DNA of 64,000 nucleotides from Botryllus schlosseri (lineage: Eukaryota). The stretch spans positions 33,048,001-33,112,000 of the forward strand of contig CM119371.1 in the NCBI GenBank assembly GCA_051294905.1, written 5' to 3'. Below are positions 1-47,476 of the stretch, piece after piece; the stretch's first letter is position 1; each line of letters starts with the position of its first letter. Under the pieces are notes generated by a model that was not told where the DNA came from, did not search any database, and was given only the letters and a program-made list of their open reading frames with translations. A program made the position numbers and the translations under genes.

Positions 1-305
1 TGCAATCTTGAATTGAAATTTTTAATTTAATAATAAAAATTAAAAAAAAAAGTCGGAATTGACTCAAATTTGTTTTGCATCGTCTTTGAAGACAGCTTAA
101 CAATTTCATGGGGTTGACAAAAAAATTTGAAAAATTTTATTTTTTTATTTTTAATAATAAATTAAAAATTTCAATTCAAGATTGCACGGCCTCTACTGGT
201 TGGAATTGGGTCAAATTTGGTGTGCATCGTTTTCTCAGACAACCTGACGATTTAGTCATTAGGCGAGTGAGATTTGGAAAAAAAAGTTTTTTTTGAACAA
301 CCCTA
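1..305. mobile_element. Right arm of a palindromic TAGGG-ended MITE (same family as 43171-43787), cut by the window edge
   Basis: Ends ...TTTTTGAACAACCCTA at 305; similar by eye to the right half of 43171-43787. Confidence 0.75.
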
Positions 306-749
306 CTAGACATATGCTATTTGTCTACTTCCTAAATTTCGTTTATGACTAATGTCTATTAGTAGTGAGAGTGTGTGTGCTTGTAATCAGTACAGTGTGT
401 AATGACAAAATTAGAAAGATGCATCTTTGTATTAATTGCTGACTCATACACAAGAGCAACACTTCGATTATTTCATCTACATTTTAATCATACAGTATGG
501 GATGTATGTCGTGTACGAGTGATTCACACATATTAGGTTATTAGAGAGTTCATGTTATGAAAACTGATAAAATACGAAAAAATGAAGGGAATTTAGAAAG
601 GCAATCTTTCGTGCATAACGAATTATTCAAGCTGTGCCACAATGGAACAATTTTGCATACCATCGTTAATCATATGTTTATGGTTATATGATAGCCATGC
701 CACAGCGTCACTGTGGCATATAATTTTCGAAGCAAATTGGTAATACTGT

Positions 750-919
750 TGGAATCGAGGTTGGAATCGGAGTCGGAGTCGGTATTTTTAAAGACTCAGG
801 GGTCGGAGCCGGAGTCGGAGTCGGTACGTTTAAAGAATCGGGAGTCGGAGTCGGTCCATTGAAAATGTGTTGAGTCGGAGTTGGAGTCGGTGCTAAAATT
901 TACCGACTCCACTGCCCTG
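750..919. mobile_element. Terminal part of a hAT-type MITE with (GGAGTC)n subterminal repeats
   Basis: GGAGTC arrays ending ...TACCGACTCCACTGCCCTG; partner end not found. Confidence 0.5.
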
Positions 920-1867
920 ATATCTCGTAATCAATGCACCCCAGACGCCACTACCTCGTAGCAGGAAAATAATCACCACTCGGCCTAGTTTCAAATAGTT
1001 ACTTATGTATTGCTGTTTAGTTATAATTAGTTAAACCATGGTCGTTTACAATGACTATGGTTTAACTATGCATATGGTCAAATGCAGTTTTACCGTTGCT
1101 GATTGGCGAGCAGTAGCTCTATAATGGTACGGTATCGCAATCTTCGTTTATTCATCATGACTACAAGTGAGGCACTGCCTTACTTATCTCTCCTGATCGC
1201 ACGCTCCTGGTATGCACCAGAGATGAGCGAGAGATATTATGCAATCCAACTCCTTATCTAAGATTCAAATCAAGACCCTATCATGCCTCAATAGAGAATT
1301 ATTCCGGCAATGACACTGTAAATTCGTTTGAAAGACGAGAATCGGCGACAGTTGCGTAAGCCTTAAAGCAGGGGTCGCCAACCCCCGACACACCAAATGT
1401 CACACCAAATGATTTGCCGCACACGACACATATAATACTCAAGTTTGGTGTAAAACGAGTAACATGCTTTCAACGCGGAAAAAATCGCAGACGATCCAAT
1501 AATATCTCGTAATCAATTGATATTAAGTAAAGTGTTTTGGGGCAGGTTTTATTTTTTATGAAATTGTGTTTCGAGCCGGGACCCAATTTCTTGACCATAA
1601 TGTGGGAAACTCTCAAAATATATATACGGCAACCTAATACCGTATAAAATCGTTTGGATGCTTTAGAGCAGGGGTGTGCACTGTACAGCCTGTGGAAGCG
1701 CAACTATGTAATGAACAAGCATTTCGGCGCTGGGCATTTTTACGTTAGGAGACGCGCCTTTCGTACAACATGCGACTATGCAACCCCGTGCGCAGTGTGT
1801 GCTGCCAAAATGATAGGCGGCGATAAAACCTTAGTAGTATAGTCGATCGCTCGCGAACGGCCATTGG

Positions 1868-2212
1868 TTTCTTATGGCGGGGTCGCATGCTAACGCGAAA
1901 ACCGGGGGTGGCATGCTAACGTTTTCGTCTTATGGCGGGGTGGCATGCTAACGTTTTCGTCTTATGGCGGGGTGGCATGCTAACGTTTTCGTCTTATGGT
2001 GGGGGTGACATGCTAACGTTTTCGTCTTATGGCGGGGTGGCATGCTAACGTTTTCGTCTTATGGTGGGGGTGACATGCTAACGTTTTCGTCTTATGGCGG
2101 GGTGGCATGCTAACGTTTTCGTCTTATGGTGGGGGTGACATGCTAACGTTTTCGTCTTATGGGTGCGGTCGCATGATAACGCGAAACTCGTGGTGGCATG
2201 CTAATGTTTTTA
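1868..2212 (+). repeat. Subterminal 32/33-bp minisatellite (mirror copy ~15573-15917)
   Basis: Unit A GTTTTCGTCTTATGGCGGGGTGGCATGCTAAC and unit B GTTTTCGTCTTATGGTGGGGGTGACATGCTAAC in order AABABAB at 1921-2147, with degenerate flanking units. Confidence 0.95.
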
Positions 2213-2614
2213 GGTATACGTGCGGCGACATGTTAACGACGATAAATGTGTCTGTCTGTTGAATATGTACGAGTCACCAACAATAACCGCGCAAACGGAA
2301 ACGTGGCTTGTTGTGAGGATTACGCGTGCGACCTATATTTCGAATGACCTGCGTGCTGAATTATTTCCCGGCCAACCGCGTGCTACTATCGATTATTGCA
2401 CTAGACCAGTCAGTGTGAAATAGTTTGATCGTAAATTATGATATATGATGTCGTAGTTTAGTCGTGTCAAATGACCGATCGTGTTCTCTTTCCTCGCTAT
2501 TGATTGCTAGCTGAATAATACTTTCGGCTTATTCGCTGTTTCGCGCCTACAGAATAGTCTGCTGTTCACAGTCGCAACAAGAATCACAAGTATACACATT
2601 TACACATTCGTTTA

Positions 2615-3107
2615 TTACTCTGAAATCAAACTCTTCACAAAAACACGTACAATCGTATCATTCACTTTTTTTATCATCGCCAAAATTATCCAAGTATTCC
2701 TCGGTTGAAAACCCTTGAGCTCTTTTTATCAAGAATGCGATAGCATGATCTCCACACACATCTGAAGTTTTACTCTGTAACTGTTTCCCAGTCACTGAAA
2801 ATTCATCCGGCTCCAGGAATTCGATTATCTGAGGTTTTAGTGGTCCGAAGCCTAGCGAATCATGAAAATGAGTATCGTCATCTCTGTATATAGACACCCA
2901 GTGAGATCCAGGCAAACTCGATTCGTCGTAATTAATGGTGATAGCGAATTTTCCGCTAGTTGGTTTCTTCGGTAACTGATCTACTGGATAAGTTCGGCGA
3001 TTCGAATATCGACAATAACCGCGTTCGCATACTAACACTCTAAAAAGGTGTGAAATATTTGTAAAAATCCTACGACCACTCACAAGATAACACATCAGAA
3101 TAGTCAT
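2615..3107 (-). pseudogene. Adenain-like (Polinton PRO) cysteine protease, left-arm copy, frameshifted near the C-terminus
   Basis: Motifs NYDESSLPGSHWV (His), FHDSLG (Asp), QLQSKTSDVCG (Gln/Cys); exact mirror of 14678-15170. Confidence 0.85.
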
Positions 3108-6100
3108 CTCTCGTGGTTTGGTGTTACAAAGGTAGGAATTATAAGTAATATTTTGGACGACAATGATATATCGTTATTCTTATGGACGCGGCGACATGAT
3201 AACGTTACAGGTATAGGTTGTGGTGGTGATTCGCCATGTGTTCTTATGCGTGCGCTCGCACGTCGTACTTTCAAGTATAGGTATCTCTCGCATGTCGTAT
3301 TGGAAACTCGTGTTGGCTCGCTCACGCGGCGAAATTTTAGTAATCAGTTTGTCACAGTACTTGATATCGCTGGTAAGATTTAACAAGTAACGAATAACAG
3401 ACCGCGGTAACTTGAATAGCGACAAATTGTCACTTATTTCCGCTCTAACTCTAATCCTTTGTGAAGTGAACGCTTATTCAAAAGGGTGTGATATAATTTT
3501 AAAATCCAACGACCACTCACCGGATAATGCTTCAGACATATAGCAATCCCTCATACCCGCCTACAAGGTAATATTTCGGTAATTAGTTTGTCACAGAACC
3601 GTCGCAGGCGGTGATTGGAAAACCGACAATTTGTCACTCGCCCGCGATCGCTATATGTTTCACGCCTCCAGAATAGTGGCTGACTTTAGTTGCGTGATAA
3701 GATCCATGAAAATATTCAATCAATGTGTTAGTTTATCAACTTGAAATGAAACTCACTACACAAATCAAGTCGATTCGTATCTGAATGTTTTAAATCGGTA
3801 CAACTCTAATCCTTTGACAAAGCCCTTAACGCGTTTTTGGTGAATCGAACGTAACCCGAATATTACTGACGCCGACTTTCAGCCGCATCGAATTATTCGC
3901 ACATTCCGCGTCACTGTTTTCGCACTTATAGAATCAATACCAACTATAACTCTTCAAGAATCAAGAATCACAAGTATGTGCATTACACAGTTATTGTCTT
4001 TATTAACTTGAAATCAAACACTTAACAAAAACACACAACTAATCATTTGGCAACTCTAGCATTACCAAAAAATTCCAGTATTGTTGATTGAAAATCCTTG
4101 AGTCATTATTATCAAAAATGTTATAGTACCGCATCGGGATCCATTCGCGGGATGTACTAAAGGTAAATCCAAATAATCCACATTCGCGGGATGTACTAAA
4201 GGTAAATCCAAATAATCCACATTCGTGGGATGTACTAAAGGTAAATCCAAATAATCCAGAATGAAATATTTGGACTTTTACATAGTGTGAATTGAAATAG
4301 GATTGACAAACACGACTACCAACTTTGATCCAGCCACATTTCAAGATCATACTTTGAAACAAGTAATGTAACATTACAACTCTATTCACGATCCCGCTTT
4401 CCATTTGTCAAAGAAATATTTTAACATCTTACCATACTCAAAAGAATTATTCACAACATTAACAATTGTTAAAAATCTAGTTTTCACTTACTTGATTATA
4501 TCACTGCAACTCATAAATTTGAATTAATTCATCCTGGTTGTATTCGTATGCTCGGTCTTTTTTATTCAATTGTAAAGGTTGTTACTATTCTGAAGACAAA
4601 GTATTTACTAATCGGTGCATATACGATTTGACTTGGACATATTATATTTTGAGTATACGAGATTTGAATGTCTGAACAATAACTGAGAAATAATTTATCA
4701 CAATTAAATCCGTAATATTACAGCGTAAAAGATATTGGAATGTCAGCAACTCTGCAAGGTCATAGTTACTACCACTAATTTACCCGACCAACTCGTCATG
4801 ATCATTCCTGAAATCAACACAAACGTGACCACTGACTTGAGTTAACCACAAAACAGCATCAAGTTTTAAATCCACTTGTAGCTTACGGCTTATTTGAATG
4901 CGGGTTATGTTTTGTTGTAATTGAGTGTACGGAAATAGTATTACGTCTCGACATATCACCATGTCGGAATTTGTGGCAGAGAATTGAAACATATGCACTT
5001 TACAGAGTGTGAAAATATCACTTTGAGTATCGAGTACCGTTCGAAGCAAGCGATCAATTCTTAATCATTTCAGTAACTCCCCATTGTGTGTGCTAAATGT
5101 AAAATATCGCGAGGTTATACACTCTAAGACTTTGATTATCACAAAAGTAAATTGTGATATGTTTGTTAGATGCATCCAATTCAACTAGAAGTGTCTAGTG
5201 CCCAACACTCGTAATATCAAAAAAGTACTCGCTACACTGTTATTTGCTAAACGTGTTTTGCATTGTTGTTCATTTGTAGTATTGAATGAAATTGTTCTTG
5301 AACCCTCAAATAATAATTCCCGACATGAAACCAAGCCGCTGAAAGTCGTTACCATCACGAAGATACAATGTGTACGATGTTTGTCAAATGTGTCCTACCT
5401 GGCCAACAGAAAACAATTTTCACTAGCTTGGTAATGAAACCGAAGTCTCCATTCGATATATTGTTTGCGTCAAATACTTTACAACGAACACATTTGCGTG
5501 GTTGAGCTTTACATCATCAGACTGTCATCTGTACATCAAGAATACATCAGACTTGTAACTGGATCGTTTACCTAACCGAGTTGATATTTTTGTCATTTAG
5601 TGATTGCTGAACATACCACTTCGAAATACTGCGTTGATCTTAATTTCCATCATCGTGATAAGTGAAGTACATTTGTTTTGAATTCATAACAATAGGCTTT
5701 TCTACGACATGATAAATTATTGACAAGTTCTGCTTAGAAGATTGGTTGCATATCACGAAAAATAATATACCACACATATTATTACTGTTACTCCATTCAT
5801 CGGTATTTTTTCCGTTGTCGATTTTCAAACGAGTAAAATTTATTACTTGAGTTGCTCTGCTTAATGTAAATGTAAACTCGCCCATCTTTCAACAACAAAC
5901 AATGTTAAAATAGTATACAATCAAACACAACAAGTTTTACGATACTAATTATTATCCCACATAACCCATTTCTTACTGAAGACATATGAAATATATTCAT
6001 GTTACACGAAAATATTCGCTCATGCTACAAACCTGTACAATGATTGGTGGTGCTTTCAAACTGTTTCGATACCTCAAGAACTTTATTGTCTGAACGGTTG

Positions 6101-7089
6101 TTCATGTATCGTAATAATCAAGTAGTTAAACATAGAACTAGTATTAACAGAAACACCAGAGTTGTTTACACAAAAGTTTGTATGTGTACAGTATACGAAT
6201 ACCATTTGTAAGTCCAGCACAATTGTGGTATCCATACGAGTTTAGTTAACACAATTTACGACACCGAGGTCGCGTCATCTTTCGTAAGACAACAAACCAA
6301 GGCTTCAGGATATGTCCATGTCATAGCAATAAATCAGCTACTCCAACAACAGAGTGCATATGTTTCTAGTTACGGCGCTTACATCTTACACACAAATCAA
6401 TCTACTTTGCTAACGAAAAGTGGTGAGTCATCATATGGTTGTCCTCACAACTAAAACATACTATCACACAAAATGGTCGTTATAGTTTGCACACCAACGG
6501 TACATCGTACAAGTAACAAGTCTCGAGAATCCAGTTATTCAAAAAACGTGAAAGTATTTCTACACCAAGTCGTTATGTTGACGAAAGCGTATATTTTAAG
6601 ATCATGATCGATTTACATTCGTTGGTCACAAAATGTCACTACTCTAAATAATTATTTTTCACTCAAACACAAACGCATACTTGTCACCATTCGTTTTCAT
6701 CAAGCACGAGTTCAAGAAACTTACTTACTACGATATGAATTTTTATTTTTATGTTGTGTAAATAGGTAATAATTAATTCAAGTAACACTATATCAACATC
6801 ATCGAGTTGTGCTAATAGATTTACATGTGGTCTTGTGGTTTTCGTCGGGACATACAGCACGAACTAACTGTAGACTCCTCTCTGTTGTACAGCTACTCGG
6901 TAATCGAAATGCATTAACATGTAAACAACGATCTTGTTTCGTCACACCAAAAATATGTTCACTGTCGCGATACTCCGCACAAGACGTGCATAGCCTTTTC
7001 ACACTCGTAATAGTATACCAACGTCAAGCGATAACGTTTACCAACACCAACGACACTAAACCCACGACGTTTACCTATGTAAAATTACC

Positions 7090-7745
7090 ACTTTCACTTG
7101 TCAGTCCATCGTTTACCTGACTAAACATATTATTTTCCTTTGGAGATCTGGCGTTTACCCAGAGTAAGAAACCATTTTCACTTGTAAATATTTTTTTTTC
7201 CTCGGCTAACAAACCTTTTTTCACTTGTAAATATATTTTTTCTCTTGGTAATAAACCTTTTTCACATGGAAATATATTTTTTCTCTTGGTAATAAACCTT
7301 TTTCACATGGAAATATATTTTTTCTCTGAGTAACAAACCTTTTTCACATGGAAATATATTTTTTCTCTGAGTAACAAACCTTTTTCACTTGGAAATATAT
7401 TTTTTCTCTGGGTAACAAACCTTTTTCCCTTGGAAACATATTTTTTCCCCGGGTAACAAACCTTTTTCCCTGAGCAACAAACCTTTTTCACTTACAAATA
7501 TATTTTTTCCTGGTTAACAAACCTTTTTCACTTGGAAATATATTTTTTTTCCCTGGGTAACAAACCTTTTTCGCTTGGAAATATATTTTTCCCTGGGTTA
7601 CAAACCTTTTTCACTTGGTGATCCGTCGTTTACCTGAGTAAAAATATCATTTTCCTTTGGGGATCTGGCGTTTACCCAGTGTAACAATACATTTTCTCTT
7701 GGTCATCTAGCTTTTCCTAGAGTAACAAAACCATTTTCATTTTGA
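7090..7745 (+). repeat. AT-rich ~39-40-bp minisatellite (mirror ~10040-10695)
   Basis: Unit approximately GGTAACAAACCTTTTTCACTTGGAAATATATTTTTTCTCT, over a dozen diverged copies. Confidence 0.9.
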
Positions 7746-8482
7746 AATCTGACAACCACACCGACAATTTGATATTTTTGTATTTTCTTACAGCGAACAG
7801 CGACAAAATATACACCAACAACGACTCCGATACATTTGTCTAATCAAATATTCACTTGTGTTGGTGCATCCCATCAAAATCATCGGTTACCCACATGCAA
7901 TGCGCTCTTGTACACAGAAATGCATGTTTTGGAAACTTGGACAATAGGCTTCGATAGTTCTGTGCTGTCTGGGTTCGTGCTTTGGATTTTCCAGAGTCAA
8001 AATGTCTGAATAAAACACCTCCTCGACGATGGTTGGTATGTGGATAACGGTGTTCGGAAAACGGTTGGATTTATGTCACCCATCGCGATAACAATTCCAG
8101 GTCAAGTTTTCCCCTCGCATGTTTACTATATTGTGTCTTTATTGGTCAATGTATGCCTCGACATTCAGTTTGAAATCGGAAACCCTGATAAAGTATGCAA
8201 CCGGATCCGGATATCAACTCTGAATCGATAAACCAATGAACAATATTCAAAGTAAACATGTTACACCCTGTGTTTCCACGAAAAAATACCATCCAGACAT
8301 ACGTCGCGCTTGTTTGCCCACACCAGTATACGCGTAAATGGAGGTGTGTGACATTGCATGCAATGTGTTGGTATACAAACATCGATCCACAGACAATATC
8401 ATAGCCGGTAGTTTTGATGTAGATCGAATGTCATCACACCCGATAACAATACCAATAAGCCACATTGTAATGACTCTGAGTC

Positions 8483-9302
8483 CGCGGTATTAGTCATGAC
8501 CCTATCTCCGGACAGACGTCCCAGATCAATTGGAGACATCGATCAATATCCGTCGCGTTGTCGACACCGAACTTTTCTGCTGCAGCGTTTGACCAATGTG
8601 AACTATCGAAGTATGGGTGCTCGAAATGATTGCGATCAGTCTTTCAGTCACGATGCATCGATGTCGCTACTCCCACATAACGACTCCAGATAAATATCGT
8701 GAACAGTGATTCTGCAAATCTCGGACTGATACTGTGATCCAATAATGTGTGTTTCTGTGGAATCAAGACTGTAATCGTACACCACAATGGAAATCATAAA
8801 ACACATCATCGTAAGGATCCAGTTCGTCCTGTGACATTTCGAAACGGTCATCGCCACAATAGATCGGTATCATTTTGAAACGACATCGTCACAAGTGTAT
8901 TGACGTCGATTCTGTTGGTCATGTCAATCCATTTCACAATCCACCGTTTTTCAAGTCCCTGCACCATAGTGTTACGACACAGACAAGAAGCGACGGTGGA
9001 AATAATAAAACACGAAAAGCACACTTTGGTGTTATTTGACATGGATTTTACACGAGATGAACCTCACATTCGAGCGATGAATTGGAATGGTGATTGTATT
9101 GTTGACGTCAAAGGAAAAGAAATGTATCGATTTATCGGTTTCGTACATATCCAACAAAAATCTGGGTATATGATTGTGCATGGTTCGCATATTCGACTGT
9201 GAACGCCCAATTGGTATATGTTGTACAGTTCACTTTCACCGTCGTGCGAATAACCCATGTTAGGGTTCCATGTTTGTGTGTCTGTATGTCATGCTTCAGA
9301 TT
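8483..9302. other. 820-bp unique spacer of the palindrome; contains an unassigned 100-aa ORF (8900-9202, +)
   Basis: No mirror symmetry; the ORF shows no motif I recognise. Confidence 0.8.
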
Positions 9303-12300
9303 GACTCAGAGTCATTACAATGTGGCTTATTGGTATTGTTATCGGGTGTGATGACATTCGATCTACATCAAAACTACCGGCTATGATATTGTCTGTGGAT
9401 CGATGTTTGTATACCAACACATTGCATGCAATGTCACACACCTCCATTTACGCGTATACTGGTGTGGGCAAACAAGCGCGACGTATGTCTGGATGGTATT
9501 TTTTCGTGGAAACACAGGGTGTAACATGTTTACTTTGAATATTGTTCATTGGTTTATCGATTCAGAGTTGATATCCGGATCCGGTTGCATACTTTATCAG
9601 GGTTTCCGATTTCAAACTGAATGTCGAGGCATACATTGACCAATAAAGACACAATATAGTAAACATGCGAGGGGAAAACTTGACCTGGAATTGTTATCGC
9701 GATGGGTGACATAAATCCAACCGTTTTCCGAACACCGTTATCCACATACCAACCATCGTCGAGGAGGTGTTTTATTCAGACATTTTGACTCTGGAAAATC
9801 CAAAGCACGAACCCAGACAGCACAGAACTATCGAAGCCTATTGTCCAAGTTTCCAAAACATGCATTTCTGTGTACAAGAGCGCATTGCATGTGGGTAACC
9901 GATGATTTTGATGGGATGCACCAACACAAGTGAATATTTGATTAGACAAATGTATCGGAGTCGTTGTTGGTGTATATTTTGTCGCTGTTCGCTGTAAGAA
10001 AATACAAAAATATCAAATTGTCGGTGTGGTTGTCAGATTTCAAAATGAAAATGGTTTTGTTACTCTAGGAAAAGCTAGATGACCAAGAGAAAATGTATTG
10101 TTACACTGGGTAAACGCCAGATCCCCAAAGGAAAATGATATTTTTACTCAGGTAAACGACGGATCACCAAGTGAAAAAGGTTTGTAACCCAGGGAAAAAT
10201 ATATTTCCAAGCGAAAAAGGTTTGTTACCCAGGGAAAAAAAATATATTTCCAAGTGAAAAAGGTTTGTTAACCAGGAAAAAATATATTTGTAAGTGAAAA
10301 AGGTTTGTTGCTCAGGGAAAAAGGTTTGTTACCCGGGGAAAAAATATGTTTCCAAGGGAAAAAGGTTTGTTACCCAGAGAAAAAATATATTTCCAAGTGA
10401 AAAAGGTTTGTTACTCAGAGAAAAAATATATTTCCATGTGAAAAAGGTTTGTTACTCAGAGAAAAAATATATTTCCATGTGAAAAAGGTTTATTACCAAG
10501 AGAAAAAATATATTTCCATGTGAAAAAGGTTTATTACCAAGAGAAAAAATATATTTACAAGTGAAAAAAGGTTTGTTAGCCGAGGAAAAAAAAATATTTA
10601 CAAGTGAAAATGGTTTCTTACTCTGGGTAAACGCCAGATCTCCAAAGGAAAATAATATGTTTAGTCAGGTAAACGATGGACTGACAAGTGAAAGTGGTAA
10701 TTTTACATAGGTAAACGTCGTGGGTTTAGTGTCGTTGGTGTTGGTAAACGTTATCGCTTGACGTTGGTATACTATTACGAGTGTGAAAAGGCTATGCACG
10801 TCTTGTGCGGAGTATCGCGACAGTGAACATATTTTTGGTGTGACGAAACAAGATCGTTGTTTACATGTTAATGCATTTCGATTACCGAGTAGCTGTACAA
10901 CAGAGAGGAGTCTACAGTTAGTTCGTGCTGTATGTCCCGACGAAAACCACAAGACCACATGTAAATCTATTAGCACAACTCGATGATGTTGATATAGTGT
11001 TACTTGAATTAATTATTACCTATTTACACAACATAAAAATAAAAATTCATATCGTAGTAAGTAAGTTTCTTGAACTCGTGCTTGATGAAAACGAATGGTG
11101 ACAAGTATGCGTTTGTGTTTGAGTGAAAAATAATTATTTAGAGTAGTGACATTTTGTGACCAACGAATGTAAATCGATCATGATCTTAAAATATACGCTT
11201 TCGTCAACATAACGACTTGGTGTAGAAATACTTTCACGTTTTTTGAATAACTGGATTCTCGAGACTTGTTACTTGTACGATGTACCGTTGGTGTGCAAAC
11301 TATAACGACCATTTTGTGTGATAGTATGTTTTAGTTGTGAGGACAACCATATGATGACTCACCACTTTTCGTTAGCAAAGTAGATTGATTTGTGTGTAAG
11401 ATGTAAGCGCCGTAACTAGAAACATATGCACTCTGTTGTTGGAGTAGCTGATTTATTGCTATGACATGGACATATCCTGAAGCCTTGGTTTGTTGTCTTA
11501 CGAAAGATGACGCGACCTCGGTGTCGTAAATTGTGTTAACTAAACTCGTATGGATACCACAATTGTGCTGGACTTACAAATGGTATTCGTATACTGTACA
11601 CATACAAACTTTTGTGTAAACAACTCTGGTGTTTCTGTTAATACTAGTTCTATGTTTAACTACTTGATTATTACGATACATGAACAACCGTTCAGACAAT
11701 AAAGTTCTTGAGGTATCGAAACAGTTTGAAAGCACCACCAATCATTGTACAGGTTTGTAGCATGAGCGAATATTTTCGTGTAACATGAATATATTTCATA
11801 TGTCTTCAGTAAGAAATGGGTTATGTGGGATAATAATTAGTATCGTAAAACTTGTTGTGTTTGATTGTATACTATTTTAACATTGTTTGTTGTTGAAAGA
11901 TGGGCGAGTTTACATTTACATTAAGCAGAGCAACTCAAGTAATAAATTTTACTCGTTTGAAAATCGACAACGGAAAAAATACCGATGAATGGAGTAACAG
12001 TAATAATATGTGTGGTATATTATTTTTCGTGATATGCAACCAATCTTCTAAGCAGAACTTGTCAATAATTTATCATGTCGTAGAAAAGCCTATTGTTATG
12101 AATTCAAAACAAATGTACTTCACTTATCACGATGATGGAAATTAAGATCAACGCAGTATTTCGAAGTGGTATGTTCAGCAATCACTAAATGACAAAAATA
12201 TCAACTCGGTTAGGTAAACGATCCAGTTACAAGTCTGATGTATTCTTGATGTACAGATGACAGTCTGATGATGTAAAGCTCAACCACGCAAATGTGTTCG

Positions 12301-13380
12301 TTGTAAAGTATTTGACGCAAACAATATATCGAATGGAGACTTCGGTTTCATTACCAAGCTAGTGAAAATTGTTTTCTGTTGGCCAGGTAGGACACATTTG
12401 ACAAACATCGTACACATTGTATCTTCGTGATGGTAACGACTTTCAGCGGCTTGGTTTCATGTCGGGAATTATTATTTGAGGGTTCAAGAACAATTTCATT
12501 CAATACTACAAATGAACAACAATGCAAAACACGTTTAGCAAATAACAGTGTAGCGAGTACTTTTTTGATATTACGAGTGTTGGGCACTAGACACTTCTAG
12601 TTGAATTGGATGCATCTAACAAACATATCACAATTTACTTTTGTGATAATCAAAGTCTTAGAGTGTATAACCTCGCGATATTTTACATTTAGCACACACA
12701 ATGGGGAGTTACTGAAATGATTAAGAATTGATCGCTTGCTTCGAACGGTACTCGATACTCAAAGTGATATTTTCACACTCTGTAAAGTGCATATGTTTCA
12801 ATTCTCTGCCACAAATTCCGACATGGTGATATGTCGAGACGTAATACTATTTCCGTACACTCAATTACAACAAAACATAACCCGCATTCAAATAAGCCGT
12901 AAGCTACAAGTGGATTTAAAACTTGATGCTGTTTTGTGGTTAACTCAAGTCAGTGGTCACGTTTGTGTTGATTTCAGGAATGATCATGACGAGTTGGTCG
13001 GGTAAATTAGTGGTAGTAACTATGACCTTGCAGAGTTGCTGACATTCCAATATCTTTTACGCTGTAATATTACGGATTTAATTGTGATAAATTATTTCTC
13101 AGTTATTGTTCAGACATTCAAATCTCGTATACTCAAAATATAATATGTCCAAGTCAAATCGTATATGCACCGATTAGTAAATACTTTGTCTTCAGAATAG
13201 TAACAACCTTTACAATTGAATAAAAAAGACCGAGCATACGAATACAACCAGGATGAATTAATTCAAATTTATGAGTTGCAGTGATATAATCAAGTAAGTG
13301 AAAACTAGATTTTTAACAATTGTTAATGTTGTGAATAATTCTTTTGAGTATGGTAAGATGTTAAAATATTTCTTTGACAA

Positions 13381-13792
13381 ATGGAAAGCGGGATCGTGAA
13401 TAGAGTTGTAATGTTACATTACTTGTTTCAAAGTATGATCTTGAAATGTGGCTGGATCAAAGTTGGTAGTCGTGTTTGTCAATCCTATTTCAATTCACAC
13501 TATGTAAAAGTCCAAATATTTCATTCTGGATTATTTGGATTTACCTTTAGTACATCCCACGAATGTGGATTATTTGGATTTACCTTTAGTACATCCCGCG
13601 AATGTGGATTATTTGGATTTACCTTTAGTACATCCCGCGAATGGATCCCGATGCGGTACTATAACATTTTTGATAATAATGACTCAAGGATTTTCAATCA
13701 ACAATACTGGAATTTTTTGGTAATGCTAGAGTTGCCAAATGATTAGTTGTGTGTTTTTGTTAAGTGTTTGATTTCAAGTTAATAAAGACAAT
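13381..13792 (+). pseudogene. Decayed second protease paralog containing a 39-bp tandem triplication (mirror ~3993-4404, minus strand)
   Basis: ITFLIIMTQGFS and PND*LCVFVKCLISS* resemble IAFLIKRAQGFS and VNDTIVRVFVKSLISE* of the main copy; the 3' flanking DNA is also similar. Confidence 0.6.
13528..13643 (+). repeat. 39-bp x3 tandem repeat encoding GLFGFTFSTS(H/R)EC (mirror 4142-4257)
   Basis: GGATTATTTGGATTTACCTTTAGTACATCCC(A/G)CGAATG repeated three times. Confidence 0.95.
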
Positions 13793-14677
13793 AACTGTGT
13801 AATGCACATACTTGTGATTCTTGATTCTTGAAGAGTTATAGTTGGTATTGATTCTATAAGTGCGAAAACAGTGACGCGGAATGTGCGAATAATTCGATGC
13901 GGCTGAAAGTCGGCGTCAGTAATATTCGGGTTACGTTCGATTCACCAAAAACGCGTTAAGGGCTTTGTCAAAGGATTAGAGTTGTACCGATTTAAAACAT
14001 TCAGATACGAATCGACTTGATTTGTGTAGTGAGTTTCATTTCAAGTTGATAAACTAACACATTGATTGAATATTTTCATGGATCTTATCACGCAACTAAA
14101 GTCAGCCACTATTCTGGAGGCGTGAAACATATAGCGATCGCGGGCGAGTGACAAATTGTCGGTTTTCCAATCACCGCCTGCGACGGTTCTGTGACAAACT
14201 AATTACCGAAATATTACCTTGTAGGCGGGTATGAGGGATTGCTATATGTCTGAAGCATTATCCGGTGAGTGGTCGTTGGATTTTAAAATTATATCACACC
14301 CTTTTGAATAAGCGTTCACTTCACAAAGGATTAGAGTTAGAGCGGAAATAAGTGACAATTTGTCGCTATTCAAGTTACCGCGGTCTGTTATTCGTTACTT
14401 GTTAAATCTTACCAGCGATATCAAGTACTGTGACAAACTGATTACTAAAATTTCGCCGCGTGAGCGAGCCAACACGAGTTTCCAATACGACATGCGAGAG
14501 ATACCTATACTTGAAAGTACGACGTGCGAGCGCACGCATAAGAACACATGGCGAATCACCACCACAACCTATACCTGTAACGTTATCATGTCGCCGCGTC
14601 CATAAGAATAACGATATATCATTGTCGTCCAAAATATTACTTATAATTCCTACCTTTGTAACACCAAACCACGAGAG

Positions 14678-15170
14678 ATGACTATTCTGATGTGTTATCT
14701 TGTGAGTGGTCGTAGGATTTTTACAAATATTTCACACCTTTTTAGAGTGTTAGTATGCGAACGCGGTTATTGTCGATATTCGAATCGCCGAACTTATCCA
14801 GTAGATCAGTTACCGAAGAAACCAACTAGCGGAAAATTCGCTATCACCATTAATTACGACGAATCGAGTTTGCCTGGATCTCACTGGGTGTCTATATACA
14901 GAGATGACGATACTCATTTTCATGATTCGCTAGGCTTCGGACCACTAAAACCTCAGATAATCGAATTCCTGGAGCCGGATGAATTTTCAGTGACTGGGAA
15001 ACAGTTACAGAGTAAAACTTCAGATGTGTGTGGAGATCATGCTATCGCATTCTTGATAAAAAGAGCTCAAGGGTTTTCAACCGAGGAATACTTGGATAAT
15101 TTTGGCGATGATAAAAAAAGTGAATGATACGATTGTACGTGTTTTTGTGAAGAGTTTGATTTCAGAGTAA
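14678..15170 (+). pseudogene. Adenain-like (Polinton PRO) cysteine protease, right-arm copy, frameshifted near the C-terminus
   Basis: ORF 14678-15127 with PGSHW / FHDSLG / Q..S..CG; removing one A from the A7 run at 15113-15119 extends it as DKKVNDTIVRVFVKSLISE*. Confidence 0.85.
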
Positions 15171-15981
15171 TAAACGAATGTGTAAATGTGTATACTTGTG
15201 ATTCTTGTTGCGACTGTGAACAGCAGACTATTCTGTAGGCGCGAAACAGCGAATAAGCCGAAAGTATTATTCAGCTAGCAATCAATAGCGAGGAAAGAGA
15301 ACACGATCGGTCATTTGACACGACTAAACTACGACATCATATATCATAATTTACGATCAAACTATTTCACACTGACTGGTCTAGTGCAATAATCGATAGT
15401 AGCACGCGGTTGGCCGGGAAATAATTCAGCACGCAGGTCATTCGAAATATAGGTCGCACGCGTAATCCTCACAACAAGCCACGTTTCCGTTTGCGCGGTT
15501 ATTGTTGGTGACTCGTACATATTCAACAGACAGACACATTTATCGTCGTTAACATGTCGCCGCACGTATACCTAAAAACATTAGCATGCCACCACGAGTT
15601 TCGCGTTATCATGCGACCGCACCCATAAGACGAAAACGTTAGCATGTCACCCCCACCATAAGACGAAAACGTTAGCATGCCACCCCGCCATAAGACGAAA
15701 ACGTTAGCATGTCACCCCCACCATAAGACGAAAACGTTAGCATGCCACCCCGCCATAAGACGAAAACGTTAGCATGTCACCCCCACCATAAGACGAAAAC
15801 GTTAGCATGCCACCCCGCCATAAGACGAAAACGTTAGCATGCCACCCCGCCATAAGACGAAAACGTTAGCATGCCACCCCCGGTTTTCGCGTTAGCATGC
15901 GACCCCGCCATAAGAAACCAATGGCCGTTCGCGAGCGATCGACTATACTACTAACCTTTAAATACAATAACCGCATCTACA

Positions 15982-16672
15982 TGTGGCCCGCGAGAAGGTT
16001 TTGAGTGGCCCGCGAGGTAATTTCCGAAATTTCTAATATCATCAAAAGTGGATTGCACAGATCGTGAACTTGCAAGGCCAACCAAAAATTTGATTAGTCT
16101 GGCCGCAACACGTGAGATGTGATGACTAAAATATCAGTTTCGACTCATTGACAGATCCATCAACCATTCATATATTGGTATATCTTCGTACACTACAATA
16201 ACGCAGAATAATTTGCGATAGATTTATCAAAGATAAAAAATTTCTACAAGCTTAACGCAATATGTTGTCACTCGATTTCTTGTTCTTAATATTGTCGCCC
16301 TTTTGTGAAAATTGAAGAACACCCAATGTATCAGATTGAGTCTAACTATATTCGCGATTATGAGACAAACTGTCGTTCACCATATGCGACCATGCGTATG
16401 CGCTCGCAGTAAGACCGTCGACTATGAATCCTAGGCACAAAATGATTGACGTATGTTGGTGGCAGCTTTCGATATCAATATGTCCATCCGCCGAATAGCC
16501 CAGTCCTCGCAAACTTAGCCCAGCGATATACAGCAGGCCCGCAATATAGTCAAGTGACAATATTATTGACCTATGAACTTTAAAAAATTTTCGTGCTTCG
16601 CGCGGATAGTGGCCCGCGCAGAAGTTCGTCAATCGAATGTGGCCCTTTGGCTGAAAAGGTTCGCCAGCCCTG
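15982..16672. mobile_element. hAT-type MITE, one end truncated (family also at 38801-39484, ~47010-47342, 49746-50451, ~58935-59131)
   Basis: Ends ...AAAAGGTTCGCCAGCCCTG; GGCCCGCG subterminal motifs; inverse-similar to 49746-50451. Confidence 0.8.
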
Positions 16673-16974
16673 CATTAAACCAACTTGCATGATACAGGGG
16701 TGGGCACACTTTTCATCATCAGGTCTTATCATTGTAACATCTTTGATGGTCCTGTCACTTAAGGTTCGGTTAGACGATGAGTTGCCGCGAGGCATTCTTT
16801 GTTTATTCTAAAGACTCCCTGTACCGCGATCTGACTCGCTCTGACGCGCCCTGGCGGCGCGAGCTAACGCGAAACTCCCGCCGCGCGGTAGCGCTTGATA
16901 ACGCTCCTGTAGCGTCTTTTGAGCGTCTGCGCGATGCACTTTGTGAGTTTGTTCAGTTTGTTGGTCTTGCGAGT

Positions 16975-19152
16975 ATGGACAACGAGAGAAGACGTCAAAT
17001 TTTGCTGGCTAGGTCTGCATGCTTGGTCGGTGCATGTTATTTGGTGGAACTGAGGAAATTGAATTCAAGGAGAAAAAAACGCTCAAAATGGGTGCGGCAG
17101 TTGTACCTGCGCAGGAAGTCGCAAGGTATGTACCGGTCTAGTACACTACAAAGTGCACTCTAGTCAAGTCATATGCAAGACAGTAGGTTGATTTAGTATC
17201 ATTTAGGGTTTTAATGATCAATTGATGTCTTAAAACCGAGACTGTATATAATATAGATCAGAGGTATCAAACACGCTGCCCGCGGGCCGCATGCGGCCCG
17301 CCAGAGCATTTTGTGCGGCCCGCGACGACATTTTAGATTTTTAATAATTTGAAAATATTTTAGTGTCACACATATCTTTCAGGTTATAAAGACAAATCCC
17401 CTCTTAAATTGCCCCGAAAGCCTGAAACTATTCATCAAACTTCACTGTCACATCAATTGCAAACGCTACCGGTATACCATGCAGTGGAAGATTCACTATT
17501 TCGCCACATTTCCAATTCATGATGACAAAACCTGACCCATGGACGATTCGTGACTGAAATTTGTGAGTTGGACTTGGACACGACCTTTCTTAGAATTACT
17601 CAGACTCGGGCTAACTCAATGGCAAAATGAAAATGACTCGAGTGGACTAGGAGTGATGACTCGGAATACCGTCAATTTGTTAGAACCATGGACGCAACAA
17701 ACTAATCGCGTATCAGGGGAATAGTAATAGATCAGAAGGTCGCAGCTTAGTATTTCGCTAACTAAGCAAGTAGTTATGGCAACCATTAGCAATCTGTCAG
17801 TTACATCTTTGGTCGCTAAACCATGTTATTAAGGCCACTTACAGGTACCGAGTACCATAGTGGTACGCTCCAACGATGTAACAGCAATGGGCTACTACTA
17901 GTCTACTGCTCAACAAGCATCCCGGGCCCTGGTCTTGATAATAATGTGACCAGAGAGTTGTCATAAGATAAAAAACGCAAGACACAACTAGCTTGTTGAG
18001 ACCATTTTTCATGGTTCAGTATTTATTGCCTCATTGTTACTCACCAATTTTCATATTCAACAGGTCATTTCCACCAACTTGTTACAGAATTGGAATTGGA
18101 GGGAGAAGACATGTTCATAAACTTTTTCCGAATGAACAAGGCGCAATACCAAGCACTACTGCGACTGATTGGACCAAGTATCACCAAACAAGCCACATGT
18201 ATGAGGGAACCCATTGGTCCTTCTGAGAGGCTTGCTGTTACTTTGAGATTTCTTGCTACTGGAAATGACTACCATTCCCTTGGCTATAGTTTTCGGATAC
18301 ACCACACAACAATCTGTAAAATCGTCCCTGAAACATGTCAGGCCGTATGGAATTGCCTTCAACCTATCGTTTTACCTCGGCCTACATCTTCAAAATTGAA
18401 GGAGGTATCCATGCAATTTCAATCAAGGTGGAACTTCCCCAACTGTGTCGGCGCAATCGACGGAAAACATGTGGAAATAGAGGCTCCACCAAATTCCGGC
18501 TCTTGGTACTTCAACTACAAAAAAGACCTTCAGCATGGTGCTAATGGCAATAACGGATGTAAATTATAAATTTCTGTGGGTTTCAATCGGCTCGTATGGA
18601 CGAAATGCTGATGCTGGGATATTTAGCCATTCCGACTTCGGAAAACAAATAATAGACGGTACATTGGAATTACCTGCTGACCAGCCATTAGTACCCGGAC
18701 TACCCAGTATGCCACATGTTTTCGTTGCGGATGAGGCATTTCCGTTGTGCCGCAACTTGATGAGACCCTTCCCGGCAAAAAAGCTCACTCAGTCAAGAAA
18801 AATTTTCAATTACCGCTTATCAAAAGCCAGAAGGACAGTTGAAAATACTTTCGAAATTATGTCTGCTAAATTCCGCGTGTTTCGCAAGCCGTTGTGCTTG
18901 AAACCTGAAAATGTGGATGAAGTTGTGAAAGCGTGTGTCTGTCTGCACAATTTTCTCAGAAAAGACAATTGCTCATCTCGGCGCGAACCTAGTATTCCCA
19001 ATCACTCATCTGCAGCCTTCACATCCCTCGATCGGGTTGGAAGAGGTGTCTCGGGAGAAGCAAAAGCTATACGCGAAGCCTTCATGCAGTACTTTACCAG
19101 CGCAGCCGGTGAAATAAGTAGTCAAGTTAAATATGTCAATCGCGTACGCTGA
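16975..19152 (+). pseudogene. Harbinger DDE transposase: exon 16975-17125, GT-AG intron 17126-18063, exon 18064-19152; one +1 frameshift at A6 18519-18524
   Basis: Splicing gives in-frame RKSQG-HFHQLVTELELEGEDMFINFFRM; motifs LAVTLRFLATG, GAIDGKH, NYK(K)TFSMVL, ADEAFPL, FNYRLSKARRTVENTF, ACVCLHNF. Confidence 0.9.
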
Positions 19153-20821: not shown

Positions 20822-21148
20822 CATATAACATGGATTTATGCAGCTGTTGCGGTTTGGAGTGCTACAAAACCCCACTATATAAGGCATTGCTAGTTCAGGA
20901 TATCATTTCCACGTCCCACACTGCCTTAGAACTGCTCAAAACTACCTAAAACTGATAGTCATTTTGTTGGATCACATATCCTACACCCCGCAAACCTACC
21001 TGGCACTGCTCATCAATTTCCTGGATCTCCTCCATGTGCAAGAATACAACTGTAAATGTAACATCCACTCACAGCCACATTATAAAAATCACAGGAAACG
21101 AAAAAATAAGGCAAAGAAAGAGATCAGCTTGGCAAAATATTACATAAA

Positions 21149-22397
21149 TCAGGTGGATGAAATGGTTGCTTTCGAGAAATCTGCATATCTGTTCCGGTTA
21201 TCTTCCACAGCTTGTAGGAGGCTCGCTCGCTGTTTTTTGTCATCCGCTATGAACGCAGCATAGTCGGTATTCAATTGTACCATACGCTCTGCTGCATCGT
21301 TAACTACTTCAACAGTATTCACAAATTCTTGAGCAGTCACGAAATCCGGATCAGTATGCCATTCCGAAACTGGAAGACTCAACCAATCATGTTCCACATG
21401 TATAGCATCAAATAGAAACCACGATTCTGGCCCAATCAAATCGACCATACTAATTGACTCAGAGACAGAGATCAGACTGAGACGCATACCTCTGCGAAAT
21501 TTTTCAGGGATTGGCATTTTCAGCAATTTAGCAGCTATCGCTTCCTTCAGTTTGTCAGGAATCTTTGGATTAGCCGAGAACATGGTAAATACCACCATTT
21601 CCTCAGTTAGATACCAATGATGTTTTTGCAATTTCTTGTATGCCACATCAGCAACAGTGAGATCACATAATGAAAGGTTTTTCATGTCATGAAGGAATTT
21701 GAGATCATTCTAAGGTGCGTCACATGCAATACCAGTTTTCAACCAAGCTGGAACATAAAACAAAGCTATGAATGTATTGATTCGTTCCAGCTTTTCAATG
21801 AACTCTTCAGAATAGTCCATTTGCTCACTCCACATGAACATTTTTTGACAGTACAGGACTTGACTCATCCATCTAGCGCTATGAGTAGCAGCAGGCTTGC
21901 GAATACGATGATCAACATTTGTCATCCAAAATCGCCAAGGTGCCTGTTGCACATTCTCTGTAGTCATCTCTTATCGAGACTTCTTTCTGCTTTCCATCAT
22001 TGGGTTTCATCAGTGGAATTATTTCTTGCTTTGCTTCATCAGCTTTCATCGCCAACCAGCTGCCTTCCATAATCTTCAGCGTATTGTAGCGTCTTGATTT
22101 ATCAATATGTTTCCACTTCTTCTTGAAGGTATTAAAATCCTGTTTTCAGGGCCTGTGGTTGTCGATCCAAACAAACACTTCCAAACCTCTCGAATGACCA
22201 GTTCATAAATATGATGGCGAGAGGCATCGTAGAAAACTTTCCTGTTAATCAATTCTTTAAGTAACGGAACCGCACCTTTGTTTTTACCAGTGTTTGAGGA
22301 TGTTGTGTCAAACACAAGAGCTCTAACAGATTTTGTTAAATTCCAAAGTTCCAGCAGTTCAATTGATGCATCAGTCTGTGCTTTCCTGCAGCACTTT
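21149..22397 (-). pseudogene. hATm-like transposase, 5'-truncated and frameshifted
   Basis: FDTTSSNTG..KGA, SRHHIYEL (CxxH region), HSARWM, HHWYLTEE, VVNDAAER across three broken ORFs. Confidence 0.8.
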
Positions 22398-22633
22398 CCG
22401 ACTATGCTGCGTTCATAACGGATGACAAAAAACAGCGAGCGAGCCTCCTACAAGCTGTGGAAGGTCACCGGAACAGATATGCAGATTTCTCGAAAGCAGC
22501 CATTTCATCCACCTGAGTTATGTAATATTTTGCCAAGTTGATCTCTTTCTTTGCCTTATTTTTTCGTTTCCTGTGATGTTTATAATGTGGCTGTGAGTGG
22601 ATGTTACATTTACAGTTGTATTCTTGCACATGG

Positions 22634-26549: not shown

Positions 26550-26822
26550 CCTTATATAGTGGGGTTTTGTAGCACTCCAAACCGCAACAGCTGCATAAAT
26601 CCATGTTATATGTCACTTTAACTAGGCTAGGTAAAATCGTGACACTAAGATTTTAGGGGAATCCCCTATTTTCAGCTGCTATTCTTCCAGCTCAATGTGC
26701 ACACGGATGCAGGGGACAAGTTACAAAAAAAAGTAGCCAGAATATGTTTTTAAGGTATAAGGCATGGGGATCGGACTGAAAACCTGGACTTTTTGAAAGT
26801 CGGTCAATTCTGAACAACCCTA

Positions 26823-27563
26823 ATGGTCATGTTCATTGAACAAAGGTAAAAGTATTCGGTGCACATCCATCTCAAATTGAAGAAGAACAGGTTGCGGCAA
26901 ATTGATAGCTCTTTTCATTAGGCCCCAAAGAACTGGTGCTTTTTCAGCAACCATATTTTGAGGGGCAGCTGGAGGACGAGGTGCAGACGTAGCTGACGCG
27001 ATAGTATTCATTGCTTTCTGGAGTTCACTGATGTTATTGTTCAACACAGTAGATGACCTTTTTCGATTTCTGGGAGTTTCCAGGTTGCCGATAGTTTCCA
27101 ACTCTCTTGGAGTTCGTAAATCATGTGGAGTCGTCTCCGAATCTCCTTCTGCTATCAAATTTAAAATGTGGAAATCTTCGTTAGAACTCGGACTCGGATC
27201 CAAACTTTCAATATCAGAGGTATCTAAATTGTTCGTATCATCGGTGTTAGTGATCGTTTTTTTGCTATCCAGGAATGGGTCCAGAAATTTCATGGTTTCA
27301 TAGTATTCCCATATCGGAGAGGTACTCGCTCCTGCTCCAGATTTGTAGTTGTCATTTATTTTCTTCCTCATTTTTCGGTACTTGTCCCTCAAGTGTTTTC
27401 ATTGACTTTTCACATCCAGAATTTGCATTGGAATTGGAAGTGAATTGGCAACTGCGCTCCATGCGTTGGCCTTTACATTCTTGCTATGGTAGTTACCGTC
27501 GCCAGGGTCGTAAAGGCAAGGATATTGCATAACACCATTGATTATTTCTTCGAAGCAGTTCAT
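26823..27563 (-). pseudogene. Harbinger MADF/Myb-like DNA-binding protein; in-frame TGA at 27399-27401; last codons displaced to 19283-19297 by an insertion
   Basis: YPCLYDP...NAWSAVA...VKSQ*KHLRDKYRK...KSGAG...WEYYETMKFL is a MADF-type pattern; the two track ORFs are in frame. Confidence 0.88.
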
Positions 27564-46900: not shown

Positions 46901-47476
46901 ACAACTCGAAAGAGCGTCAAGTTCGACTCCAGTCGAACTCAAACTCGTTTTCTCGCTTCGCTTTCTGAATACCGCTTCTTACGCAATGTTGACGCAAAAT
47001 GAGTTTGAGCACTGAGTTAGGTTTCTTGAATACGGGCCAAAGTGTCATTCAACTTATGCGACCTTCGTTTGTGCTCGCAGAAAGACCGTCGACTATGATA
47101 CCACGGCACAATATGATTGACGCATGTTGGTAGAAGTTTCGATATCGATATGTCCAGGCGTTGAATAGTCCAGTCCTTGCAAACTGAGCCCAGCGATATA
47201 CGGCATGACCGCAATATAGTGAAGTGACAATATTATTGACCTATGAACTTCGAAAAATTTTCGCGCCTGGCGCGGCTAGTGGCCCGCGCAATAGCCCGTC
47301 AATCGAATGTGGCCCTTTCGCTGAAAAGGTTGGGCACCCCTGCGATAAGGTGAGTAAAATTAAAATAAATGCAAAATGAAAGAATCTCCTGATAACTACG
47401 AATTACAAAATTTTGGTTCTCATTTACATTTTCACTTGCTCGGAAACTGTTGAATTGCATTTGATGAACATTAGGG

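What the first reader, a model, noticed from the sequence alone, without database searches (positions are those of the whole stretch)
1833..15952. Young insertion with old, decayed cargo: identical arms, shared lesions, no nested MITEs
Seen: mirror ORFs translate identically, the same A7/T7 frameshift and the same minisatellite unit order occur in both arms, and I found no MITE or SINE in 14 kb although the rest of the window is saturated with them. The coding content is nonetheless degraded. Inference: the element has propagated for a long time without its own genes and inserted recently, with arms either recently duplicated or homogenised by panhandle replication. Either reading implies recently active Polinton machinery in this genome.
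Basis: partly seen in the sequence, partly recalled or inferred. Interest (0 to 1): 0.7.

Follow-up and report, generated by a model that had tools for sequence, protein, structure and literature searches.

The report
Mirror-image Polinton hitch-hiker, young copy
This 14-kb stretch is a probably young copy of an abundant, almost gene-free mobile element with the ends of a virus-like Polinton transposon, and its two halves stay identical even where this copy differs from its relatives, which hints at how such elements copy their DNA.

Summary
Real. 1833-15952 has two 6,650-bp arms with 0 mismatches, an 820-bp loop, AGTAGT/ACTACT ends and a 6-bp target duplication. Public contigs show a large family, spread to about 10% divergence, with arms 1.4-3.6 times deeper than the loop. 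At 16 of 21 shown arm sites at least 95% of family depth carries another letter, yet both arms agree, so arms are equalised after mutations arise. 'Old, decayed cargo' is only partly right. The one recognisable gene piece, an adenain-type protease, is 123/125 identical to an intact protein. An older remnant of about 70% identity lies 1.3 kb inward; the rest shows no coding signal. Youth is supported by other samples lacking this copy's letters and its flank, but no empty site was seen and arm identity alone does not date it. Best reading: a helper-dependent palindromic Polinton satellite whose arms are equalised during fold-back replication (0.6). Rivals are in-place gene conversion and assembly collapse. 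This scan found such palindromes many times before in this genome and in another. I recall, unchecked, a zebrafish precedent from 2006.

The parts
1827..1832 (.). Left target-site duplication AACCTT
1833..15952 (.). Whole element, 14,120 bp, 94% of it inverted repeat; ends AGTAGT...ACTACT
   Evidence: end motif and 6-bp TSD as in vertebrate Mavericks (PMC8097293 section 7; passage)
1833..8482 (+). Left arm, 6,650 bp
   Evidence: 0 mismatches to the right arm
1905..2181 (+). Subterminal array, 32/33-bp unit x 8.5 (mirror 15604-15880); candidate cis site for helper proteins (inference)
2428..3577 (.). Length-variable block that holds the near-intact protease piece; skipped in some relatives (mirror about 14208-15357). 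Limits approximate
   Evidence: joints 2427>3578, 2667>3563, 3139>3587, 3141>3563 (sides only 20-25 letters, weak); protease bin at 0.10-0.13 of arm depth in 3 of 3 contig sets
2618..2993 (-). Adenain-type (Polinton PRO) protease piece, residues 23-147 of 147; first 22 codons absent; frame broken at a T7 run (2666-2672)
   Evidence: 108/109 and 15/16 identical to P0001; 1,615 homologues; own HMM E 7e-40; motif H53/D67/Q95/C102 conserved
3901..4342 (-). Older remnant of the protease 3' part and the DNA behind it (mirror 13443-13884), about 70% nucleotide identity to the young piece; contains a 39-bp x 3 repeat (4142-4258)
   Evidence: 274/393 aligned columns; score 203, shuffle maximum 131.5; not detected by the protein HMM
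7164..7739 (+). A/T-rich 41-42-bp arrays (mirror 10043-10621)
8483..9302 (.). Unique 820-bp loop
8921..9202 (+). 93-codon open frame in the loop; candidate small gene, not established
   Evidence: P0152 and P0153 have the same length and are 83% and 82% identical; neutral chance of staying open 0.25; no family or fold found
9303..15952 (-). Right arm, 6,650 bp, exact reverse complement of the left arm
14792..15167 (+). Mirror copy of the protease piece; same break at A7 15113-15119
15953..15958 (.). Right target-site duplication AACCTT

Best explanation
A young insertion of a helper-dependent, palindromic derivative (satellite) of a Polinton/Maverick. SHOWN: Polinton ends and a 6-bp TSD; no polymerase, integrase, capsid or ATPase gene found; a large, diverse family; arms identical although the copy differs from its relatives. 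INFERRED: a co-resident autonomous Polinton supplies the protein-primed polymerase and the integrase. A single strand, looped out of the chromosome or displaced during replication, folds into a 6.65-kb stem with an 820-nt loop, which rebuilds a duplex origin. Plain copying of such a hairpin would keep arm differences, so an equalising step is needed: repair of mismatches in the stem, resection and refill of the 3' arm on the 5' arm, or fold-back of the nascent strand. Each round of mobilisation thus resets the arms to identity, and the integrase inserts the product with a 6-bp duplication. The near-intact protease piece is best read as a recent recombination with helper-like DNA at the old protease remnant, then copied into both arms. 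It is not a working gene.
For: Architecture. No core genes: six frames with stops read as X against Pfam; 22 ORFs against Pfam; 22 ORFs plus P0001 against PHROGs; 227 ORFs of 13 viral loci by tblastn, with protease hits and otherwise control-level hits. Family: 177,443 contigs of run X1 laid on the stretch (its flank repeats included), 53,437/63,592/54,264/6,150 at 99+/95-99/90-95/<90%. Summed depth is 7 in the unique flank bin, a median of 302,000 over 3310-8426 and 101,000 in the loop; arm:loop is 3.0, 3.6 and 1.4 in X1, X5 and X6. Equalisation: at 16 of the 21 shown arm sites at least 95% (at 8 of 21 at least 99%) of X1 depth has another letter, and all 21 are mirrored in the right arm. Youth: at 12 of 27 shown element sites neither X5 nor X6 has any depth beyond the other letter (19 and 17 of 27 singly; 0 of 27 in X1); flank bin 1203-1503 has depth 0 in both; no nested repeat, P about 4e-4. 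Helper-like DNA: P0001 is intact and 123/125 identical. Model precedent: ssDNA loop-out and panhandle (PMC4046053, passages); panhandles as a homology-restoring mechanism (PMC11886824, passages).
Against: No extrachromosomal form was observed, and PMC11886824 says direct evidence of panhandles is still lacking. No genome was held, so neither the helper nor the shared ends were checked here. P0001's 7,972-bp contig could not be read and may be another satellite copy. The 40 variant rows shown were the best supported of 388, a biased sample. Contigs drop rare variants, the library types of X5 and X6 are unknown, and summed depth is not a copy number. No empty site was seen. No joint from loop to right arm is among the 15 of 285 joints shown. 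The joints that delimit the protease block have sides of only 20-25 letters. X6 gives an arm:loop ratio of only 1.4.
Confidence: 0.6

Rival explanations
1. Same element, but the arms are kept identical in the chromosome after insertion by arm-to-arm gene conversion (as recalled for Y-chromosome palindromes). The insertion could then be older, and replication would not be the equalising step.
For: Mirrored near-private letters fit this equally well. At site 6128 the X1 depth left for this copy's letter (276) is small enough to come from this copy alone. An 820-bp spacer is short enough for pairing (inference).
Against: At most shown sites the residual X1 depth is in the hundreds to thousands, which suggests letters shared by a small sub-lineage and so inherited through mobilisation (the residual may include third letters). 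No nested repeat. The copy's letters and flank are not seen in two other samples.
Confidence: 0.17
2. The element is real, but the perfect identity comes from assembly: one consensus used or polished into both arms.
For: 0 of 6,650 mismatches, including homopolymer runs of 7-9. The family is very large, which makes polishing ambiguous. No long reads were seen.
Against: The flanks differ, the TSD is exact and the loop is unique, so this is not a fold-back read chimera. Polishing from a large family would tend to pull arms toward the majority letter, whereas both arms hold minority letters. Earlier notes describe other copies as almost, not wholly, identical (unchecked).
Confidence: 0.1
3. A one-off, recent snap-back of one end of a non-palindromic Polinton remnant made this copy, so the arms are identical because they were just duplicated.
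For: Perfect identity, a sharp arm/loop boundary without microhomology and a near-intact protease piece.
Against: The loop is present family-wide and the arms are deeper than the loop in 3 of 3 contig sets. Loop relatives at 82-83% protein identity exist. Earlier notes report many 13-17-kb palindromes in this genome (unchecked).
Confidence: 0.07
4. Host-retained hairpin locus: transcription gives long double-stranded RNA and small RNAs that silence Polintons.
For: A read-through transcript would fold into a 6.65-kb duplex (what the sequence shows) that includes a piece 98% like an intact Polinton gene.
Against: In raw RNA run X23, 328 of 12.9 million reads were laid, on both strands, with no place where many molecules begin or end; only 12 of 328 were at least 99% alike. 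This is one library, about 6% of it read, and small RNAs were not captured. The copy seems not to be fixed.
Confidence: 0.06

Closest known systems
Autonomous Polintons/Mavericks (vertebrate set, PMC8097293: passages and section 7 read; anole element, PMC3014272: passages)
   Same: 5'-(AGT)2//(ACT)2-3' ends, 6-bp TSD, length within 12.7-24.6 kb, adenain-type protease homology.
   Different: TIRs there are 46-1,447 bp (584 bp in anole); here they are 6,650 bp, 94% of the element. None of the core genes was found intact here.
Non-autonomous Polintons of Repbase (Polinton-1N1_DR is named in PMC9341505, one passage; a zebrafish 'Polinton-2N' of about 11 kb with roughly 5-kb TIRs and no genes is RECALLED from Kapitonov and Jurka 2006, which was not held)
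   Same: If the recollection is right: the same gene-less, almost wholly palindromic build with helper-like ends.
   Different: Recalled as a handful of copies. Here the family is far larger, mirrored near-private letters are shown, and a fresh helper-like gene piece is carried.
Palindromic derivatives of protein-primed replicons: yeast killer-plasmid hairpin forms (Kikuchi et al. 1985; only the title seen in a reference list) and adenovirus minichromosomes whose ends are repaired through inverted repeats (Wang et al. 1991; only the title seen); details recalled
   Same: One end duplicated around a short unique loop, dependence on helper replication proteins, fold-back intermediate.
   Different: Those are laboratory or extrachromosomal forms. 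This one integrates with a TSD and has spread as a germline family.
Tlr1 elements and transpovirons (PMC5499653, passages); Teratorn with long inverted repeats (PMC6431247, passages)
   Same: Linear, inverted-repeat-ended relatives or dependants of virus-like elements.
   Different: They encode a helicase, capsid or transposase genes. None was found here.

Membership tests
Autonomous Polinton/Maverick | (AGT)2//(ACT)2 or (AG)3//(CT)3 ends | tested here: met
   motif from PMC8097293 section 7
Autonomous Polinton/Maverick | 6-bp target-site duplication | tested here: met
   AACCTT on both sides
Autonomous Polinton/Maverick | Intact protein-primed PolB and retroviral-like integrase genes | tested here: not met
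   Longest stop-to-stop frame is 171 aa; no Pfam hit in six frames; no hit from the 227 ORFs of 13 viral loci
Autonomous Polinton/Maverick | Intact capsid, ATPase and protease module | tested here: not met
   Only a truncated, frame-broken protease piece and an older remnant; heavily decayed capsid remnants cannot be excluded
Autonomous Polinton/Maverick | TIRs of about 50-1,500 bp | tested here: not met
   6,650 bp against 46-1,447 bp
Non-autonomous Polinton derivative (satellite) | Polinton ends and TSD without replication or integration genes | tested here: met
Non-autonomous Polinton derivative (satellite) | Multiple dispersed related copies | tested here: met
   Depth and identity spread in 3 of 3 contig sets; insertion sites not seen
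Non-autonomous Polinton derivative (satellite) | Ends shared with an autonomous helper in the same genome | not testable with these tools
   No genome held; indirect only: intact protease P0001 at 98% and unchecked earlier notes
Copy-back / hairpin defective replicon | One end duplicated around a unique loop | tested here: met
Copy-back / hairpin defective replicon | Extrachromosomal fold-back intermediate replicated by helper proteins | not testable with these tools
   needs molecular data
Young, polymorphic insertion | Empty allele in other individuals | tested here: inconclusive
   The unique flank itself has no depth in X5 and X6, so no empty site could be seen; the copy's letters are missing at 12 of 27 shown sites in both
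Conserved loop gene | Purifying selection and expression | tested here: inconclusive
   Three full-length versions, but chance of staying open is 0.25; an ATG frame this long arises in 18-39% of Markov controls; 3 of 3 shown differences fall on second codon positions; RNA depth 0-1.4

The most novel reading that the evidence does not exclude
A true satellite of an endogenous animal polintovirus. Folding about 7.5 kb of unique sequence into a 14-kb palindrome gives a strand that snaps back into a ready duplex origin and a genome of helper-like length for packaging. The family out-replicates its helper, resets its arms at every cycle, exchanges DNA with helper genomes in the same replication compartment (the fresh protease piece) and carries one small gene of its own in the loop. 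The genome would then hold a sequence record of Polinton fold-back replication.
Probability: 0.22. Interest if true: 0.8.

Novelty: new variant of a known kind. Interest (0 to 1): 0.5.

Why it matters
How Polintons replicate is still a model; a paper on protein-primed replication read here says direct evidence for panhandle intermediates is lacking (PMC11886824). An element that is 94% stem, in a very large family, turns arm equalisation into something countable. Each copy has an internal control (arm against arm) beside between-copy divergence, so replication-coupled resetting can be told from in-place conversion with long reads alone. The family also shows that multi-kilobase perfect palindromes can spread in an animal genome, and that arm identity must not be used as an insertion clock. 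This copy adds one point: a nearly undiverged protease piece mirrored in both arms, which suggests recent exchange with helper-like DNA. The interest is limited because the scan has reported this family many times, and the build may already be in print for zebrafish (recalled, unchecked).

Tried and rejected
No whole genome was held, so copies were not counted and no helper was located.

Coding searches that gave nothing beyond the protease: Pfam on six frames (best E 0.061) and on 22 ORFs (best E 0.0018, a 9-residue repeat match below cut-off); PHROGs on 23 proteins; PDB sequences for P0001 (best E 0.4); Rfam on 1-18000; tRNA scan. An apparent excess of long frames in 4401-8482 (6 against 1.5) shrank under Markov controls (P 0.015-0.07 for 4401-7050 at 80 aa, not significant at 60 aa), so 'decayed genes throughout the arm' is not claimed. 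The 81-aa frame at 5643-5885 looked by eye like a minor-capsid start; the Atlas and a search among longer proteins gave no support.

Loop frame: Atlas blank; model pLDDT 57; Foldseek best E 0.1; best Z 5.4, rmsd 1.8 over 52 residues, tied with unrelated rows. No fold is assigned.

Related loci: none for the protease piece, P0001 or P0002 in viral or metagenome contigs (one search confirmed one stretch but returned no locus); the terminal pattern was absent from both collections. P0003 is a low-complexity false hit and was dropped. The HMM used 139 of 151 proteins, those of 120-200 aa. The older protease remnant scored above shuffles with P0001 (43 against a maximum of 32) but not with P0002 (43 against 45).

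Runs: no RNA holder listed. Only 4 of 24 listed runs were laid; X1 may be the source sample and is not independent support. Dividing summed depth by 31 gives about 1,400 arms and 470 loops; the tool warns that this is no copy number, so it is used only as 'hundreds or more'. The fold of 8440-9345 (z -10) reflects the included arm ends and says nothing about the loop.

Literature: ten searches listed no paper on wholly palindromic Polintons. The library lacks most subscription papers and Kapitonov and Jurka 2006. No supplements were opened; the TIR-size supplement of PMC8097293 could bear on the range quoted. Earlier-note look-ups by sequence and place found no look-alike, so it is not shown that this copy and its loop frame belong to the same subfamily as the copies in those notes.
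Full report
Observation. The element spans 1833-15952 (14,120 bp). Its arms, 1833-8482 and 9303-15952, are exact reverse complements over 6,650 of 6,650 positions, around a unique 820-bp loop. It starts AGTAGT, ends ACTACT and has AACCTT on both sides. These match the commonest end motif and the 6-bp duplication of vertebrate Mavericks, whose TIRs are only 46-1,447 bp (PMC8097293; passages and section 7 read). Identical mirror ORFs, the same minisatellite order and the T7/A7 pair (2666-2672, 15113-15119) all follow from this identity. The arm plus loop has no significant hit to the rest of the window, whereas dispersed repeats cover 35% of the other 49.9 kb and touch 39 of 48 one-kb tiles; the Poisson chance of so long a repeat-free stretch is about 4e-4. 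Only repeats with a second copy in the window were testable.

Cargo. One gene piece is recognisable: an adenain-type protease at 2618-2993 (minus strand; mirror 14792-15167). It has 1,615 homologues, scores E 7e-40 with an HMM of 139 natural homologues and keeps the conserved H, D, Q and C columns. Two of six proteins checked hit the adenovirus endoprotease family weakly (E 0.02-0.04). An intact 147-aa protein from a 7,972-bp ENA contig, P0001, matches 108/109 and 15/16 residues on the two sides of the break; its first 22 residues have no match in the window. So this piece is truncated and frame-broken but hardly diverged. About 1.3 kb inward lies an older copy of the same 3' region (3901-4342; 274/393 columns identical; score 203 against a shuffle maximum of 131.5), which the protein HMM does not see. 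For the rest of the arm, Pfam, PHROGs, 227 ORFs of 13 viral loci, the Atlas and Markov controls give nothing that can be called a gene remnant. The loop holds a 93-codon frame with two full-length relatives at 83% and 82%. I looked for it because earlier notes mention a small loop gene. The evidence here is weak: a neutral frame would stay open a quarter of the time, frames this long are common in Markov controls, and no family or fold was found.

Family. No genome was held. Twenty listed runs from 8 studies of one coded organism hold part of the stretch; 4 of 24 listed runs were laid on 300-9302. In X1, perhaps the source sample, summed depth is 7 in the unique flank bin, a median of 302,000 over 3310-8426 and 101,000 in the loop. 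Arm:loop ratios are 3.0, 3.6 and 1.4 in the three contig sets, as expected if relatives also have two arms per loop. Summed depth is no copy number, but the contrast means hundreds of copies or more (inference). Laid contigs spread from over 99% to about 90% identity. The bin with the young protease piece has only 0.10-0.13 of arm depth in 3 of 3 sets, while the bins with the old remnant are at full depth, and some weak joints skip about 2430-3580. I read the young piece as a recent addition in a minority of copies. Earlier AI notes report several hundred such palindromes and some 54-60 polymerase-bearing elements in this genome, and a similar family in another genome. These are unchecked, and sequence look-ups found no look-alike of this copy among them.

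Arm identity against between-copy identity. Of 40 variant rows shown (the best supported of 388), 21 lie in the arm. At 16 of these at least 95% of X1 depth carries another letter, and all 21 window letters are mirrored in the right arm. A mutation arises in one arm, so something has made the arms alike after these letters arose. Zero differences in 6,650 sites bounds arm divergence below 4.5e-4 (95%). This dates the last equalisation, not the insertion.

Age. At 12 of 27 shown element sites neither X5 nor X6 has depth beyond the other letter (19 and 17 singly; 0 in X1), and the unique flank bin 1203-1503 has no depth in either. With the exact TSD and the lack of nested repeats, this favours a young, unfixed copy. 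I put that at about 0.75. Against it: contigs drop rare variants, the two libraries are of unknown type, the rows shown are selected, and no empty site could be seen because the flank itself is missing.

Expression. In RNA run X23, 328 of 12.9 million reads were laid, on both strands and without a start or end hotspot; 12 were at least 99% alike, and loop depth was 0-1.4. There is no abundant long transcript in that one library.

Mechanism. The model for self-synthesising transposons has a single strand looping out through its TIRs and forming a panhandle origin (PMC4046053, passages). Panhandles are also invoked for restoring end homology in adenovirus and PRD1, though direct evidence is said to be lacking (PMC11886824, passages). 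An element that is 94% stem fits this well, but plain copying of a hairpin keeps arm differences, so stem repair, resection and refill, or nascent-strand fold-back must be added; that step is inferred. I give 0.6 to a helper-dependent satellite reset at mobilisation, 0.17 to in-place conversion, 0.10 to assembly collapse, 0.07 to a one-off snap-back and 0.06 to a host hairpin-RNA locus. A fold-back read chimera is unlikely, since the flanks differ and the TSD and loop are clean.

Comparison and novelty. It is not an autonomous Polinton: the core genes and the TIR size fail the test. It meets the testable features of a non-autonomous Polinton derivative; shared ends with a helper could not be tested. 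Ten library searches listed no paper on wholly palindromic Polintons. I read passages of PMC3014272, PMC6431247, bioRxiv 10.1101/2024.01.15.575659 (744-bp TIRs), PMC4443254, PMC5499653 and PMC9341505, and no supplements. I recall that Kapitonov and Jurka 2006 described a gene-less zebrafish derivative with roughly 5-kb TIRs; the paper was not held. If that is right, the build is known, and what is added is the family size, the mirrored near-private letters and the fresh helper-like gene piece. Yeast hairpin plasmids and adenovirus minichromosomes are the functional analogues (titles seen; details recalled).

Verdict. Observation confirmed; interpretation partly supported; new variant of a known kind; interest 0.5.

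Noticed in passing
window 18000-19152 (+): Harbinger-type transposase in two overlapping frames; the second piece hits DDE_Tnp_4 at E 6e-27. A possible left end lies near 16761, not verified.
   Followed up: partly
window 26820-27713 (-) and 62343-62873 (+): MADF/Myb-SANT pieces (E 3e-7 and 6e-4) and a second DDE_Tnp_4 piece (E 4e-22): further Harbinger remnants.
   Followed up: partly
window 21032-22633: 236-bp inverted repeats at 97% enclose frames of 186 and 123 aa that look transposase-like by eye but have no Pfam hit at E 0.001.
   Followed up: partly
window 1203-1503: Unique host DNA just left of the insertion has depth 7 in X1 but none in X5 or X6: the local host haplotype itself may be polymorphic, or the libraries are incomplete.
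   Followed up: partly
window 15981-16673: The insertion sits about 30 bp from a 690-bp MITE-like repeat with copies at 49746-50435 (92%), 47038-47343 (86%) and 38826-39484 (70%).
   Followed up: partly
window 3042-3112 vs 3480-3552; 3334-3360 vs 3573-3599; 7065-7189 vs 7624-7748: Short old direct duplications inside the arm (72-85% identity), which suggest a patchwork history of the modules near 2.4-4.4 kb and 7.1-7.75 kb.
   Followed up: partly
window 5643-5885 (-), mirror 11900-12142 (+): 81-aa ATG frame of unknown nature; no family, Atlas or longer-protein match.
   Followed up: yes
window 44122-44328 and 37808-37899: Host 20-bp minisatellite, with a related 9/20/29-bp array on the other strand 6 kb away.
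   Followed up: no
window 9038-9157 (-): Weak tblastn match (E 1e-4, 40 residues) to an ORF of L009, antisense to the loop frame; best control hits reach E 1e-3, so probably chance.
   Followed up: no
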